Source: a virus
Reading direction: 5' to 3' (one strand)
IMG/VR virus record: IMGVR_UViG_3300045988_008367
Coordinates: 1 to 6,223 of that record
Length of the DNA: 6,223 nucleotides
Made by a program: the position numbers and the translations under genes. Under the pieces are notes generated by a model that had not been told where the DNA came from, did no database searches, and saw only the letters and a list, made by a program, of their open reading frames with translations. Shown here one piece after another: positions 2,840-5,378 of this stretch. Each line of letters begins with the position of its first letter. The first letter of the stretch is position 1.

Positions 2840-2894
2840 AATTTCCCTTTAATCTCTTCTCTTCCGTCGCCGCTAAACACCTAAAATATAAATT

Positions 2895-2903
2895 GGCGAA
2901 GCC
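2895..2903. repeat. GGCGAAGCC mini-hairpin containing d(GCGAAGC).
   Basis: GGC (2895-2897) pairs with GCC (2901-2903) around a GAA loop. There is an exact GCGAAGC heptamer at 2896-2902. Confidence 0.55.
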
Positions 2904-2923
2904 TACCTGAGTTTGCCCAAAGG

Positions 2924-2948
2924 GAAAGCGATTTACCTCATCGCTTTC
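2924..2948. repeat. Perfect 8-bp inverted repeat with a 9-nt loop.
   Basis: GAAAGCGA (2924-2931) is the exact reverse complement of TCGCTTTC (2941-2948). The loop is TTTACCTCA (2932-2940). Confidence 0.65.
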
Positions 2949-3039
2949 AGTCTCCCCCTTGTCTTATATACGCAAACTCACAGACCAGCCTGCCACCCAC
3001 ATAGCTATTGTTTATTTATGTTAATAATTTACATGACTA

Positions 3040-3072
3040 TTTGTTTTTTTCAAATCTTTATTCATATCTTTG
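3040..3072 (+). promoter_or_regulatory. Candidate Bacteroidetes-type promoter: -33 TTTG and -7 TAnnTTTG.
   Basis: TATCTTTG at 3065-3072 is an exact match to TAnnTTTG. TTTG lies at 3040-3043, with 21 nt between the two elements. The site is 42 nt upstream of the first ATG of the gene chain (3114) and in the only sizeable non-coding block. Caveat: short T-rich motifs recur by chance in this genome, e.g. TAAGTTTG at 1328-1335 inside a gene. Confidence 0.3.
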
Positions 3073-3113
3073 CTCCTGTCTTTAAAACATGTCTAATTTA
3101 AATTTTTAATTTT

Positions 3114-3287
3114 ATGGAAAAGTATTATCTGTGTTCTATCCAGTCAAAGGTAAATCCTAATCAGAACGAAACTGTTCTTGTACCCGTTGACGAAGTTTCT
3201 GCATTTGTTTCTTCAAATCTTCGTCCGGATTGTATTCTTATCATTTCTCAATGTTCAACCTTTAAAGCAATTCCTGATGAAAAGTGA
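3114..3287 (+). CDS. Hypothetical protein, 57 aa (MEKYYLCSIQSKVNPNQNETVLVPVDEVSAFVSSNLRPDCILIISQCSTFKAIPDEK). First gene of the chain. Absent from the ORF track.
   Basis: Runs from ATG 3114 to TGA 3285-3287. 30 of 57 codons end in T, matching the bona fide genes. The overlapping track frame (3178-3276) has only 9 of 33. A/T-rich leader like the other starts. No recognisable homology. Confidence 0.5.
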   Translation: MEKYYLCSIQSKVNPNQNETVLVPVDEVSAFVSSNLRPDCILIISQCSTFKAIPDEK

Positions 3288-3366
3288 AACTAAATCTAAA
3301 ATCTGGTCTGCTATTATTGCAGCTGCTGTTAGTCTTCTTACGTCTATTGCACAAATATTTTCGTAA
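3277..3366 (+). CDS. 29-aa mini-ORF resembling a Sec signal peptide or single-pass membrane anchor (MKSETKSKIWSAIIAAAVSLLTSIAQIFS).
   Basis: ATG 3277 lies inside the track ORF 3178-3366. 16 of 29 codons end in T. Lys-rich n-region (residues 1-8), hydrophobic core (IWSAIIAAAVSLLT), and small residues at -3/-1 (S-I-A before Q26). It overlaps the 57-aa ORF by 11 nt. It is in the same frame as the peptidase gene, which starts 3 nt after its TAA. Confidence 0.45.
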   Translation: MKSETKSKIWSAIIAAAVSLLTSIAQIFS

Positions 3367-3369
3367 GCT

Positions 3370-3678
3370 ATGAACCCGAAATTAATGGATTTAATTGAAT
3401 GGCTTCTTCGTAAGAATGTTCATTTCGCTGTTACTTCTGCTTTTCGTACTTCAGAACAGAACATTAAGTGCGGCGGTTCTCATAATTCTCAACATCTAAC
3501 TGGTGATGCTGTTGATTTGAAGCCTATTGGTCTTTCAGTAGACGATTTTATTTTGAAAATTAAATGTTCTGGTTTTAGATTCGACCAGCTTATAAAGTAT
3601 CGCACATTTGTTCATGTTTCCTTTTCTCGTGCTCGTAGCCCCCGTCAAGTGGAATTAGATTTTACTGATAGAAAATGA
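3370..3678 (+). CDS. Peptidase M15-family (VanY / M15_3-like) zinc peptidoglycan peptidase, 102 aa. Putative endolysin.
   Basis: Exact S-x-H-x-x-G-x-A-x-D signature: SQHLTGDAVD, aa 40-49, nt 3487-3516. Preceded by VTSAFRTSEQNIKCGG, which parallels the (S/T)SGYR...N..GG block of M15_3 domains. Distal FVHVS His at aa 82, nt 3613-3615. 57 of 102 codons end in T. The TGA stop overlaps the rep ATG (ATGA at 3675-3678). Confidence 0.8.
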   Translation: MNPKLMDLIEWLLRKNVHFAVTSAFRTSEQNIKCGGSHNSQHLTGDAVDLKPIGLSVDDFILKIKCSGFRFDQLIKYRTFVHVSFSRARSPRQVELDFTDRK

Positions 3679-5378
3679 TTACCAAGGAATTGCAGAATAA
3701 GCTGGTGACTCGTTGTCAGCATCCTCGTACGGTTGTTAACAAGTATACACATGAGCCTGTTCTTGTGTCTTGTGGCTCTTGTCCTTCTTGTATCCTTCGT
3801 CGTTCCGGGATTCAAACAAACTTGCTTACTACTTATTCTGCTCAATTTCGTTATGTTTATTTTGTTACTCTTACTTATGCTCCTTGTTTCCTTCCTACTT
3901 TGGAGGTTTCGATTATTGAAACTTGTACGGACGATATTGCGGATGTGCCCTGCGTTCCCGATATTGATGACCTGGATGCTGGTGACCCTAACACTTATTT
4001 GTTTGGTTTTCGCAGCGTTCCTCGTTCCGCTTCTGTTAAGTTGAAGAATTCTACCGTCGAACGCACTTTTAAAGACCCTGAAGTTCGGTTTACTTATGGC
4101 ATGAAGCCTAAGGAGCTTTTGTCTATTCTTGGAAAGGTTAAGCATAATGTTCCCAATAGGATTCCTTATGTTTGTAATCGTGACCTTGATTTGTTTTTGA
4201 AACGTTTAAGAAGTTATTACCCGGATGAAAAATTACGTTACTACGCTGTATCAGAATACGGCCCTACCAGTTTCCGCCCGCATTGGCATTTGTTATTGTT
4301 TTCCAATTCCGAACGATTCTCGCAGACTGTTCTTGAAAATGTATCTAAGGCTTGGTCTTACGGACGTTGTGATGCATCACTCTCGAGAGGATTCGCAGCT
4401 CCGTATGTTGCGTCGTATGTTAATAGTTTTGTCGCTTTACCCGACTTTTATACTCAGATGCCAAAAGTGGTGCGACCTAAATCCTTCCATTCCATTGGAT
4501 TTACAGAATCAAATCTCTTTCCTCGAAAGGTACGAATTGCCGAAATTGATGAGGTTACCGATAAGTGCCTTGATGGAGTCCGCGTTGAGCGCGATGGATA
4601 TTTTCGCACAATTAAACCTTCTTGGCCGTATCTCCTTCGATTATTCCCCCGATTTTCGGACTCTATTCGTAAACTTCCATCGAGTGTTTACCAATTATTA
4701 TATGCTGCGTTCACTGCGCCCCAACGAGTCATTCACAGCGGATGTGCAGATTTAACTTGTGACCCTTTTAACGAGAATACTCCATTTAAACAAAGTATTT
4801 TGTCTTTTTGTAAACAGTATTTAAATTATGTAGATAATTATGGAAAAAGAAATGACGAGCGAAATATTCTTGCACCTCAAGCACGTTTACCGCATAGTGA
4901 TATTCTCATTCTTTCTGAATGTCGTTTGTACGATGGTGTTGATTTGGAAGCTTCTCATCGTCTCTCCCGCGTATACCGTTTTTTCCTCGGAATTGCGAAA
5001 TTTATTCGAACATATTCAACAGACGGATGTTCAGAGCTTTTCTGGTCCAGCGGCACTCCTGGAGGAGAACTCTTTGGCCGGGAAAAGTTCTTGCGCATCA
5101 TCTCCGGGAAAATAGTTGATTTTTGGAATCGTTATGATTACAACCGTCTTGTAGATTTCTATCAAACCTTGGAAGATTCCAATGACAAGGATTTGGTAGA
5201 CTTTGAGCTTCGTAACTATTCCTTCCGTTATGATAGAACTTCTCGTGATAAGGTGAAACCTTACCATGAATTACCTCTTGTTCGTCGTTTGGCTGCTGCT
5301 TCATTGATGAAATGTCGGGATAAGGTCAAACACAAGAAGGCTAATGATTTGTTTGGTATTTTTTCTTATCATGACTGA
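3675..5378 (+). CDS. VP4: Rolling-circle replication initiator, HUH superfamily (VP4 / phiX gpA-like), 567 aa.
   Basis: N-terminal Cys cluster CGSCPSC. Motif 1 FVTLTY (nt 3861-3878). HUH-type motif RPHWHLLLF (HWH at 4281-4289). Double-tyrosine motif YVASYVN (Tyr codons 4404-4406 and 4416-4418), compare phiX174 gpA YVAKYV. Confidence 0.93.
   Translation: MITKELQNKLVTRCQHPRTVVNKYTHEPVLVSCGSCPSCILRRSGIQTNLLTTYSAQFRYVYFVTLTYAPCFLPTLEVSIIETCTDDIADVPCVPDIDDLDAGDPNTYLFGFRSVPRSASVKLKNSTVERTFKDPEVRFTYGMKPKELLSILGKVKHNVPNRIPYVCNRDLDLFLKRLRSYYPDEKLRYYAVSEYGPTSFRPHWHLLLFSNSERFSQTVLENVSKAWSYGRCDASLSRGFAAPYVASYVNSFVALPDFYTQMPKVVRPKSFHSIGFTESNLFPRKVRIAEIDEVTDKCLDGVRVERDGYFRTIKPSWPYLLRLFPRFSDSIRKLPSSVYQLLYAAFTAPQRVIHSGCADLTCDPFNENTPFKQSILSFCKQYLNYVDNYGKRNDERNILAPQARLPHSDILILSECRLYDGVDLEASHRLSRVYRFFLGIAKFIRTYSTDGCSELFWSSGTPGGELFGREKFLRIISGKIVDFWNRYDYNRLVDFYQTLEDSNDKDLVDFELRNYSFRYDRTSRDKVKPYHELPLVRRLAAASLMKCRDKVKHKKANDLFGIFSYHD

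What the first reader, a model, noticed from the sequence alone, without database searches (positions are those of the whole stretch)
3277..3372. Signal-peptide-like mini-ORF in frame with the peptidase, separated only by TAA plus one codon
Seen directly: ATG 3277 opens a 29-codon ORF with textbook Sec-signal architecture. It has an MKSETKSK n-region, a hydrophobic IWSAIIAAAVSLLT core and an S-I-A motif at -3/-1. It ends at TAA 3364-3366. Both 3277 and 3370 are 1 mod 3, so the peptidase ATG is in the same frame after a single GCT codon. Reading through the stop would yield MKSETKSK...SIAQIFS-x-A-MNPKL..., i.e. a secreted or signal-anchored endolysin. Three readings are possible. (a) Low-level readthrough or a polymorphic stop meters export of the peptidase. 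(b) The peptide is a separate, very small holin-like or membrane partner. (c) A formerly exported endolysin was split by a nonsense mutation or sequencing error. Each is unusual for Microviridae. Same-frame placement alone has a 1-in-3 chance probability. The signal-like sequence is what makes it notable.
Basis: partly seen in the sequence, partly recalled or inferred. Interest (0 to 1): 0.7.

Follow-up and report, generated by a model that had tools for sequence, protein, structure and literature searches.

The report
Tiny membrane gene beside microvirus endolysin
The 29-codon ORF is a real, strongly conserved gene for a 3-kDa single-helix membrane protein that always sits just upstream of a small cell-wall peptidase in gut Bacteroides microviruses, most likely a miniature holin-like lysis partner and not a signal peptide joined to the enzyme by stop-codon readthrough.

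Summary
ATG 3277 to TAA 3364-3366 encodes MKSETKSKIWSAIIAAAVSLLTSIAQIFS, followed by GCT and then the in-frame ATG of a 102-aa M15_3 peptidase.

The ORF is a selected gene. It occurs in 66/66 distinct related junctions, with dN/dS about 0.07 in its own frame and above 2 in the shifted frames. Its peptide is more conserved than the peptidase.

The stop codon is always present: TAA 54, TAG 12, sense 0. Two database "fusions" are TAG-read-as-Gln gene-calling artefacts. Three genomes carry extra tandem stops. Five genomes of the same lineage have the peptidase out of frame.

Two more distant peptidase lineages carry an equivalent 27-31-aa membrane mini-ORF that is always out of frame. In one it overlaps the peptidase start as ATGA.

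Readthrough, a polymorphic stop, a split pseudogene and a sequencing error are therefore rejected. What is conserved is a tightly coupled module of mini membrane protein plus signal-less endolysin.

An integrated copy places the host in Bacteroides.

Best reading: a holin-like partner of the endolysin. That function is inferred, not shown. The gene is already in databases only as "hypothetical protein".

The parts
3114..3287 (+). ORF57. A conserved 57-aa hypothetical protein and the first gene of the coupled chain. Its TGA (3285-3287) lies 8 nt inside the mini-ORF, in the ATGAAAAGTGA overlap.
   Evidence: dN/dS is 0.19. 434 database relatives exist, all unnamed, with no Pfam domain and from microvirus-sized contigs. 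It is annotated 'hypothetical protein' in GenBank relatives. No Pfam or PHROG hit.
3277..3366 (+). Mini-ORF of 29 codons plus TAA. It has a cationic N-terminus (MKSETKSK), one amphipathic transmembrane helix (I9-F28) and almost no C-terminal tail. Predicted topology is N-in/C-out.
   Evidence: Present in 66/66 junctions. dN/dS 0.065-0.075. Hydrophobic-moment permutation p = 0.0097. Summed Hessa-scale dG is about 0.1 to 2.4 kcal/mol over 17-21 residues (scale values recalled from memory). The exact sequence is in nr/MGnify as 'hypothetical protein [Microviridae sp.]' on 49 contigs.
3364..3366 (+). Genuine stop codon of the mini-ORF (TAA).
   Evidence: TAA in 54 and TAG in 12 of 66 distinct junctions, never a sense codon. 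TAA/TAG interchange preserves termination.
3367..3369 (+). 3-nt spacer (GCT), unconstrained in sequence.
   Evidence: It varies as GCT, ATC, ATT, GTC, ACC, TTC, GCC, GCG, GTG and ATA among relatives. It is replaced by 9-56-nt spacers in 8 genomes.
3370..3678 (+). 102-aa M15_3 (LAS-type) zinc peptidase, the putative endolysin. It has no signal peptide or SAR segment. Its TGA overlaps the Rep ATG (ATGA).
   Evidence: Pfam PF08291 E 5.9e-13. PHROG 894 'endolysin' E 2.4e-17. Invariant R26, H42-x6-D49 and H82. The AF2 model (pLDDT 65) gives weak best matches to LAS folds ShhN 6dmy_B and DD-peptidase 1lbu. It lacks the roughly 35 N-terminal residues of canonical relatives.
3675..5378 (+). Replication initiator (Rep/VP4-like), the last gene of the overlap-coupled chain.
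   Evidence: Pfam PF23343 E 2.1e-12. ATG 3675 overlaps the peptidase stop.

Best explanation
The mini-ORF is an independent gene. It is translated from its own ATG and terminated at its own stop, and it encodes a 3-kDa single-pass membrane protein.

The protein has a cationic N-terminus in the cytoplasm. It has one amphipathic helix with a Ser/Thr/Gln/Ala stripe along one face. It has essentially no periplasmic tail.

The gene sits in an overlap-coupled chain, ORF57 then mini-ORF then M15_3 peptidase then Rep, of a temperate Bacteroides microvirus. The peptidase has no export signal and so needs help to reach the murein.

The most likely mechanism is that the mini-protein accumulates in the inner membrane. 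It oligomerises through its small/polar face and permeabilises the membrane in a holin-like way. The co-translated peptidase then reaches and cleaves peptidoglycan cross-links, lysing the cell.

Shown here:
- The gene is real and under purifying selection.
- The stop is real.
- The module is conserved in three lineages.
- The junction is tight.
- The helix is amphipathic.
- The peptidase has no signal peptide.
- The host is Bacteroides.

Inferred:
- Membrane insertion and topology.
- Oligomerisation.
- Hole formation.
- A lysis role for the peptidase.

The in-frame TAA-NNN-ATG layout of the window's lineage is a historical accident of a very short intergenic spacer, not a recoding device.

The confidence of 0.55 refers to the holin-like function. 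Confidence that this is a real, independently translated and selected gene is about 0.9.
For: Real, selected gene:
- 66/66 junctions carry it, dN/dS is 0.065-0.075 and the shifted frames exceed 2.
- The lineage-2 counterpart MKSNNIWKIVIGAVSAALGYILNAIGL has dN/dS 0.088 over the 46 81-nt copies of 49 lineage-2 loci.
- A third form, MSTENNKKTNWITAVISAIVAALTSLLSNLA, occurs in L135 and L137, and a further variant in Dulem virus 243.

Co-occurrence with the short M15 peptidase:
- Every mini-ORF DNA hit is followed by the peptidase.
- Every microvirus peptidase locus whose upstream flank could be read has a mini-ORF immediately upstream.

Tight coupling:
- The spacer is 3 nt in 57/66 junctions.
- Lineage 2 has an ATGA overlap in 47 of its 49 loci and a GTGA overlap (GTG start) in L129 and L136.
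- Lineage 3 has a 2-nt gap.
- The ORF57 stop overlaps the mini-ORF start and the peptidase stop overlaps the Rep start.

Peptidase needs a partner:
- Neither it nor any sampled relative has a signal peptide.
- dsDNA-phage relatives lie beside TM-protein ORFs typical of lysis cassettes.
- Roux 2012 reports the same for prophage homologues.

Helix properties:
- Amphipathic in all three lineages, with permutation p of 0.0097, 0.028 and 0.001.
- Weak PHROG hits go to holin family 443, at E 0.13 and 0.011.

No competing candidate in the flanking region:
- The only other hydrophobic ORF upstream (2913-3101) lies in DNA conserved at all codon positions, with frame-shifting indels between genomes.

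Host:
- An integrated copy is flanked by Bacteroides genes, with GyrA 89-91% identical.
Against: - No experiment links either gene to lysis.
- At 29 aa the protein is far smaller than any characterised holin I know of. From memory, class II holins are about 68-71 aa. BhlA/TpeE-type single-helix holins are about 8 kDa (PMC9527704).
- It lacks the usual charged C-terminal domain.
- The PHROG holin hits are not significant and could reflect TM composition alone.
- Homology among the three mini-ORF types is only suggestive, with hhalign probability 40% and 72%.
- How a one-helix 3-kDa protein would pass a folded 11.7-kDa enzyme is unknown.
- No spanin-like outer-membrane component was identified.
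- Synonymous divergence in the mini-ORF (dS 0.29) is lower than in its neighbours (0.65-0.80), so some unexplained nucleotide-level constraint also acts.
- An overprinted single-gene lysis protein elsewhere in the genome was not searched for and cannot be excluded.
Confidence: 0.55

Rival explanations
1. Other membrane role. The mini-protein is real but is not the hole-former. Examples are an antiholin or timing regulator, a membrane tether or chaperone for the peptidase, a superinfection-exclusion factor of the prophage, or a free-standing signal-peptide mimic that is inserted by Sec/YidC and interferes with signal peptidase I or the translocon.
For: - The lineage-1 sequence has full signal-peptide architecture and an A|Q site that fits the Bacteroidetes Q-rule (PMC5837995).
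- Substitutions at the -1 position are only A, S or G.
- Hydrophobicity is marginal, with summed Hessa-scale dG about 0.1 to 2.4 kcal/mol.
- The phage is temperate, and small TM proteins of prophages are often exclusion factors (my own knowledge).
- Its size is below that of any known holin.
Against: - Strict positional coupling to the peptidase in three lineages points to a joint function with it.
- The A|Q-type motif is absent from lineages 2 and 3.
- The conserved amphipathic polar stripe is not a signal-peptide feature.
- No other candidate hole-former was found in the region flanking the module.
Confidence: 0.3
2. Programmed or leaky stop-codon readthrough makes a small amount of a 133-aa Sec-exported (signal peptide plus peptidase) endolysin, metering export.
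For: - The ORFs are in frame with only TAA plus one codon between them in the window and in 57/66 relatives.
- The hypothetical fusion would carry an SPase-I-type SIA|Q site suited to a Bacteroides host.
- In L017 the peptidase ATG is ATA.
Against: - The stop is never a sense codon (0/66).
- TAA predominates, at 54/66.
- L019 has four consecutive in-frame stops, and L021 and L070 have two.
- Among the 8 spacer-length variants, 5 break the frame and 3 keep it, close to the 2:1 expected without constraint.
- Lineages 2 and 3 are always out of frame.
- There is no downstream RNA structure (z = +1.12, covariation -0.69).
- No tRNA gene is present in the genome.
- The two database 'fusions' are TAG translated as Gln by the gene caller.
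Confidence: 0.03
3. A recently split pseudogene or a sequencing or assembly error. On this view a formerly signal-peptide-bearing endolysin was interrupted by a nonsense change.
For: The layout is in frame, and the upstream piece has signal-peptide-like architecture.
Against: - The same stop is present in 66 independent assemblies from many samples, with TAA/TAG variation.
- The peptide is under stronger purifying selection than the peptidase.
- No sampled M15_3 relative, microviral or otherwise, carries an N-terminal signal peptide.
- A very ancient split followed by neofunctionalisation cannot be excluded, but nothing supports it.
Confidence: 0.02
4. A pure translational-coupling leader. The ORF exists only to deliver ribosomes to the peptidase start in a host that lacks Shine-Dalgarno initiation, and the peptide itself has no function.
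For: - Start and stop overlaps chain ORF57, the mini-ORF, the peptidase and Rep.
- The spacer is at most 3 nt in nearly all genomes.
- No Shine-Dalgarno motif is visible upstream of either ATG (direct reading).
Against: - A leader whose peptide is irrelevant would not show dN/dS of 0.07-0.09 in two lineages.
- It would not keep a conserved amphipathic TM helix across three lineages.
- Coupling is probably real, but as an additional property and not the sole function.
Confidence: 0.05

Closest known systems
Canonical holin-endolysin lysis cassettes of dsDNA phages (e.g. lambda S/R; small single-helix holin-like proteins of the BhlA/TpeE family, TCDB 1.E.27)
   Same: - A small membrane protein gene lies directly adjacent to, and is co-expressed with, a signal-less muralytic enzyme.
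- One TM helix with a polar/small-residue face and a short charged cytoplasmic end.
- M15_3 relatives in dsDNA phages sit in such cassettes (Roux 2012).
   Different: - Only 29 aa (3 kDa), against about 70 aa or more for the smallest characterised holins.
- No amphipathic or charged C-terminal domain.
- No significant sequence match to any holin family.
- Found in a 6.2-kb ssDNA microvirus.
- Hole formation is untested.
M15_3 peptidase genes of Alpavirinae/Gokushovirinae microviruses (Roux et al. 2012, PMC3394797; Kirchberger et al. 2022, PMC9239249)
   Same: - Same enzyme family, same proposal that it is an endolysin, and the same gut/Bacteroidetes setting.
- Kirchberger et al. note that the peptidase moves between families in a block of about 700 nt. 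That is the size of ORF57 + mini-ORF + peptidase here (565 nt).
   Different: Those papers do not describe the 27-31-aa membrane ORF. Roux et al. mention only an adjacent 'unknown' ORF in 5 of 11 cases. Kirchberger et al. explicitly omit overprinted genes. GenBank relatives leave the mini-ORF unannotated or absorb it into a wrongly extended peptidase CDS.
Sec signal peptides of Bacteroidetes obeying the Q-rule (Bochtler et al. 2018, PMC5837995)
   Same: - A positive n-region, a 13-residue h-region, small residues at -3/-1 (S-I-A) and Gln at +1.
- The host is Bacteroides.
   Different: - It is not attached to any mature protein. A stop follows 4 residues after the putative site in 66/66 genomes.
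- The motif is absent in sister lineages.
- The helix is significantly amphipathic.
Single-gene lysis proteins of small phages (phiX174 E and ssRNA-phage Sgl proteins) and small pore-forming type I toxins such as TisB (29 aa; from memory)
   Same: Very small single-helix membrane peptides encoded by minimal genomes, or able to depolarise membranes on their own.
   Different: - Sgl proteins act without a phage muralytic enzyme. phiX174 E, like several other Sgls, blocks murein precursor synthesis.
- Here a dedicated peptidase is always co-encoded.
- No sequence similarity was tested or claimed.

Membership tests
Sec/SPase I signal peptide of an exported protein | n-region with net positive charge, hydrophobic h-region, c-region with small residues at -3/-1 (plus Gln at +1 in Bacteroidetes) | tested here: met
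   Direct reading of MKSETKSK / IWSAIIAAAVSLL / TSIA|Q. Position -1 is A, S or G only, and +1 is Q in 64/66. SignalP and DeepTMHMM were not available.
Sec/SPase I signal peptide of an exported protein | Covalently continuous with the mature domain it exports | tested here: not met
   A stop codon is present in 66/66 junctions. The only two 'fusions' among the best 120 of 1137 database hits are TAG-as-Gln artefacts.
Sec/SPase I signal peptide of an exported protein | Cleavage-site motif conserved among homologues | tested here: not met
   Lineage 2 ends ...YILNAIGL* and lineage 3 ends ...LLSNLA*, with no A|Q.
Programmed stop-codon readthrough / recoding | Reading frame of the downstream ORF conserved relative to the upstream ORF | tested here: not met
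   5/66 lineage-1 junctions are out of frame. All 49 lineage-2 and both lineage-3 junctions are out of frame.
Programmed stop-codon readthrough / recoding | Single leaky stop, stimulatory context or structure, or a suppressor tRNA | tested here: not met
   TAA in 54/66, and 2-4 tandem stops in L019, L021 and L070. RNA fold z = +1.12 and no covariation. No tRNA gene.
Holins | Small phage membrane protein with at least one TM helix | tested here: met
   20-residue hydrophobic stretch I9-F28, KD17 maximum 2.11, cationic N-terminus. Membrane insertion itself was not tested.
Holins | Encoded next to and co-expressed with the endolysin gene | tested here: met
   3-nt spacer or an ATGA overlap in three lineages, and complete co-occurrence.
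Holins | Sequence membership in a described holin family | tested here: not met
   No Pfam hit. PHROG holin family 443 only at E 0.13 (window form) and 0.011 (lineage 3), below significance.
Holins | Charged hydrophilic cytoplasmic terminal domain | tested here: inconclusive
   An 8-residue K-rich N-terminus is predicted to be cytoplasmic. There is no C-terminal domain at all.
Holins | Forms lethal membrane lesions that release endolysin at a defined time | not testable with these tools
   Needs expression and complementation experiments.
SAR (signal-anchor-release) endolysins | Weakly hydrophobic N-terminal TM segment on the endolysin itself | tested here: not met
   The peptidase N-terminus MNPKLMDLIEWLLRKNVHF carries D, E, R and K and has no hydrophobic run.
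Peptidase M15_3 / LAS zinc peptidases (applies to the downstream gene) | Profile match above the curated threshold, plus an H-x6-D ... H zinc-ligand motif | tested here: met
   PF08291 at 49.3 bits against a 23.2 cut-off. H42-x6-D49 and H82 are invariant across lineages. Fold matches to ShhN and DD-peptidase are weak (E 0.014 and 0.23).
Single-gene lysis (Sgl) proteins | Causes lysis alone, without a phage-encoded muralytic enzyme | not tested
   A peptidase is always co-encoded here, which argues against this but does not exclude it.

The most novel reading that the evidence does not exclude
The 29-aa protein is a complete holin and by far the smallest known. In this lineage it looks like a free-standing Bacteroidetes signal peptide. 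Together with a minimal 102-aa M15 peptidase it forms a mobile two-gene lysis module of about 400 nt. A large clade of temperate Bacteroides microviruses would then lyse by a holin-endolysin mechanism and not by single-gene lysis.
Probability: 0.4. Interest if true: 0.7.

Novelty: new variant of a known kind. Interest (0 to 1): 0.5.

Why it matters
How microviruses other than the phiX174 group lyse their hosts is unresolved. The M15 peptidase has been proposed as an endolysin since 2012, but with no account of how a signal-less enzyme crosses the inner membrane.

A universally co-encoded, strongly selected 27-31-aa membrane protein supplies a concrete and directly testable candidate. If confirmed, it would define the minimal size of a holin. 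It would also give a very compact lysis cassette of about 400 nt for use in Bacteroides.

The case also flags systematic annotation problems:
- The mini-ORF is missing from most GenBank microvirus records.
- It is absorbed into a wrongly extended peptidase CDS in others.
- It is fused to the peptidase by callers that read TAG as Gln.

Tried and rejected
The host was obtained instead from an integrated copy on an ENA contig.
The exact-sequence look-up worked.
- P0001 and P0002 (133 aa) looked like natural fusions, but their DNA carries TAG.
- The RNA-structure explanation for the junction and for the low dS was rejected. The MFE is not better than shuffles, and the alifold covariation term is -0.69. 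Rfam gave no hit.
- A longer two-helix isoform from an upstream in-frame start was rejected as a general feature. It is interrupted by stops at 11-20 codons in 15/66 genomes, and 22/66 lack an ATG, including the window and the prophage.
- The hydrophobic 62-aa TTG ORF at 2913-3101 was rejected as a rival holin. It lies in DNA conserved at all codon positions, with frame-shifting indels between genomes.
- ORF57 and the positionally equivalent lineage-2 ORF65 show no BLASTP similarity.
- A PDB sequence search with the peptidase gave nothing. The AF2 model was only moderate (pLDDT 65), so the fold matches are weak.
Full report
**1. What is there**

The window is a complete, circularly permuted microvirus genome of 6223 nt.
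- It aligns end to end with an integrated copy.
- It carries a capsid F-family gene, a pilot-protein-sized ORF, a Rep and an M15_3 peptidase.

At the coordinates given:
- ATG 3277 opens a 29-codon ORF, MKSETKSKIWSAIIAAAVSLLTSIAQIFS, closed by TAA at 3364-3366.
- GCT follows at 3367-3369.
- ATG 3370 starts the 102-aa peptidase in the same frame.
- The ORF57 stop (TGA 3285-3287) lies inside the mini-ORF start (ATGAAAAGTGA).
- The peptidase stop overlaps the Rep ATG (ATGA).

The four genes therefore form an overlap-coupled chain.

**2. Is the mini-ORF a gene?**

GenBank relatives (Dulem and bajarodmic viruses, 78-85% DNA identity) keep it but do not annotate it.

A degenerate DNA pattern for its core found 60 IMG/VR contigs, nearly all microvirus-sized at 4.1-8.0 kb. 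With the other loci this gives 66 distinct junctions.
- The peptide is identical to the window's in 37 of them and differs by 1-3 conservative changes in the rest.
- Nei-Gojobori pN is 0.02 and pS is 0.24, so dN/dS is 0.065-0.075 in this frame.
- The two shifted frames give 2.1-2.3.
- The peptidase and ORF57 each give 0.19.

So the ORF is protein-coding and under stronger constraint than its neighbours. The exact 29-mer is already in nr and MGnify as 'hypothetical protein [Microviridae sp.]' on 49 contigs.

**3. Is the stop real, and does the frame matter?**

- The stop is TAA in 54 junctions and TAG in 12. It is never a sense codon.
- A search with an artificial fusion returned 1137 proteins.
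  - A fusion would gain score from the extra 31 residues and so rank at the top.
  - Among the best 120 only two covered the mini-ORF part.
  - Their contigs carry TAG at that position, and the tool reports that the gene does not translate to the protein under table 11.
  - They are therefore products of a caller that read TAG as Gln.
- The spacer is 3 nt in 57 junctions. Its sequence drifts freely.
- Eight genomes have other spacer lengths.
  - L021 and L070 carry a TCGTAA duplication that adds a second in-frame stop.
  - L019 has four consecutive stops.
  - L037, L071, L077, L040 and L044 have 13-, 16-, 16-, 32- and 56-nt spacers that put the peptidase out of frame.
  - Three in-frame against five out-of-frame variants is what an unconstrained frame predicts.
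- The junction has no significant RNA structure (z = +1.12; covariation term -0.69).
- The genome has no tRNA gene.

**4. More distant relatives**

A full HMMER scan showed two things.
- Canonical M15_3 relatives are 125-150 aa. They start with the usual HFTLxE segment and have no signal peptide.
- About 100-aa forms like the window's make up a few diverged groups.

Fetching loci for those groups gave 50 microvirus loci with readable flanks and peptidases 41-56% identical to the window's.
- Every one has a mini-ORF immediately upstream.
- 49 loci have MKSNNIWKIVIGAVSAALGYILNAIGL-type ORFs of 27-28 aa. dN/dS is 0.088 and the shifted frames exceed 1.6.
- In these the TGA overlaps the peptidase start codon (ATGA; GTGA in L129 and L136).
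- L135 and L137 have MSTENNKKTNWITAVISAIVAALTSLLSNLA followed by TAG, two bases and then ATG.
- Dulem virus 243 has MANKQNLWRIIIGAVSAALGYVLNTLGL with the same overlap. The GenBank CDS there extends the peptidase upstream in the wrong frame.

All of these are out of frame with the peptidase.

Profile comparison of the types gives only suggestive homology, with probability 40% and 72%. Position, size, N-terminal charge and a Trp before the helix are shared.

The conserved entity is therefore a mini membrane ORF tightly coupled to a short signal-less M15 peptidase. It is not a fusion.

**5. Properties of the peptide**

- The N-terminus is net positive and the C-terminus has no tail, so N-in/C-out is predicted by the positive-inside rule (inference).
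- Hydrophobicity is moderate. KD17 is 2.1, and summed Hessa-scale dG is about 0.1 to 2.4 kcal/mol (scale values recalled from memory).
- In all three types the Ser/Thr/Gln/Asn/Gly residues line one helical face. Hydrophobic-moment permutation p values are 0.0097, 0.028 and 0.001. This is expected of an oligomerising or pore-lining helix, not of a signal-peptide h-region.
- The lineage-1 C-terminal TSIA|Q fits the (-3,-1) rule and the Bacteroidetes Q-rule (PMC5837995). That motif is absent in the other types.
- PHROG gives only sub-threshold holin hits, at E 0.13 and 0.011.

**6. Context and host**

- A copy of this lineage is integrated in a 112-kb ENA contig, between a TPR-protein gene (with gyrA just upstream of it) and a Usp gene (with BatD beyond).
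- Its GyrA is 89-91% identical to Bacteroides spp..
- Comparison with the window places the attachment point between window 3012 and 3112.
- The peptidase matches PHROG 'endolysin' at E 2.4e-17.
- It keeps the LAS zinc ligands.
- dsDNA-phage relatives lie beside TM ORFs typical of lysis cassettes. Roux et al. 2012 report the same and first proposed the microvirus peptidase as an endolysin.
- Kirchberger et al. 2022 describe transfer of the peptidase between microvirus families in a block of about 700 nt. That is compatible with a mobile ORF57 + mini-ORF + peptidase module.
- Neither paper, nor my other literature searches, mentions the mini-ORF.

**7. Interpretation**

A signal-less muralytic enzyme needs a way across the inner membrane. 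The only gene that is always with it is a strongly selected, amphipathic one-helix membrane protein translated immediately before it.

I therefore favour a holin-like role, at about 0.55. A different membrane role sits at about 0.3. A pure coupling leader is at about 0.05. Readthrough is at about 0.03, and a split or sequencing error at about 0.02.

The gene's reality and independence are shown. Its membrane insertion, oligomerisation and lytic action are inferred.

**8. Novelty and score**

The peptidase is known, and holin-endolysin cassettes are known. What is new is recognising a conserved partner of 27-31 aa in three microvirus lineages, well below the size of any characterised holin. That makes it a new variant of a known kind.

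Interest is 0.5.

Noticed in passing
window 2860-3000, inverted repeat 2924-2932 / 2940-2948: A block of DNA is 90-99% conserved at every position across 54 genomes, with no third-position wobble. It contains a perfect 9-bp inverted repeat, GAAAGCGAT-ttacctc-ATCGCTTTC. It is probably a non-coding cis element, such as a replication origin or a recombination or packaging site. The 62-aa TTG ORF at 2913-3101 that overlaps it is probably not a gene.
   Followed up: partly
L159 9400-15900 (ENA ERZ28624435 scaffold_74); window 3012-3112: An integrated prophage of this same lineage lies in a Bacteroides contig (GyrA 89-91% identical to Bacteroides spp.). It sits between a TPR-protein gene and a Usp gene. 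Homology to the window breaks between 3012 and 3112, so the attachment site lies in that T-rich stretch. The prophage carries an extra 60-aa ORF (9547-9729) that is absent from the window.
   Followed up: partly
L017 156-557 and L018 794-1195 (proteins P0001, P0002): Public protein databases hold 133-aa mini-ORF-peptidase 'fusions' that arise only because a gene caller translated an in-frame TAG as Gln. They are annotation artefacts and could mislead homology-based claims of fused forms.
   Followed up: yes
L017 246-266: In this relative the peptidase start codon is ATA instead of ATG (TAG GTC ATA AAT...). The next Met is residue 6. It is unclear whether the enzyme starts at ATA, at Met6 or is poorly expressed.
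   Followed up: no
junctions of L019, L021, L070, L037, L071, L077 (equivalent to window 3361-3369): Recurrent tandem duplications of the 6-7-nt unit (A)TCGTAA occur at the mini-ORF stop, giving 2-4 stop codons or a frame change. This is a local hotspot for slippage. A TTACG...CGTAA 5-bp complement (window 3336-3340 / 3361-3365) is invariant but shows no covariation.
   Followed up: partly
window 3154-3276 (mini-ORF frame upstream of ATG 3277): The mini-ORF frame stays open for 41-75 codons upstream, overlapping ORF57, in 50/66 genomes, and 44/66 have an in-frame upstream ATG. The extension would add a second hydrophobic helix, giving a 58-86-aa protein. It is interrupted by stops in 15/66 genomes, and the window and the prophage have no ATG there. 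It is not a conserved feature, but it could be a lineage-specific longer isoform.
   Followed up: partly
window 3277-3363: Synonymous divergence in the mini-ORF (dS 0.29) is less than half that of ORF57 (0.65) and the peptidase (0.80). No RNA structure or second coding frame explains this.
   Followed up: partly
window 3370-3678: The peptidase lacks the roughly 35 N-terminal residues (the HFTLxE... segment) found in canonical 125-150-aa M15_3 proteins. It may be close to a minimal LAS catalytic domain. AF2 confidence was only moderate (pLDDT 65).
   Followed up: partly
window 3065-3072: TATCTTTG matches the Bacteroides -7 promoter consensus TAnnTTTG (recalled from memory). It lies 42 nt upstream of the ORF57 ATG. 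The number of matches in the window is at chance level (6 found, 6.3 expected), so this is only a candidate promoter for the ORF57-mini-peptidase-Rep unit.
   Followed up: no
L162 912-1286 (GenBank PP511391.1, XCD03853.1): The annotated 124-aa 'hypothetical protein' of Dulem virus 243 is the peptidase extended upstream in its own frame across the mini-ORF. The real mini-ORF (28 aa, other frame) is unannotated. In the same way, one 37-aa lineage-2 mini-ORF carries a JGI label 'HdeD (DUF308)', probably a composition-driven match.
   Followed up: yes
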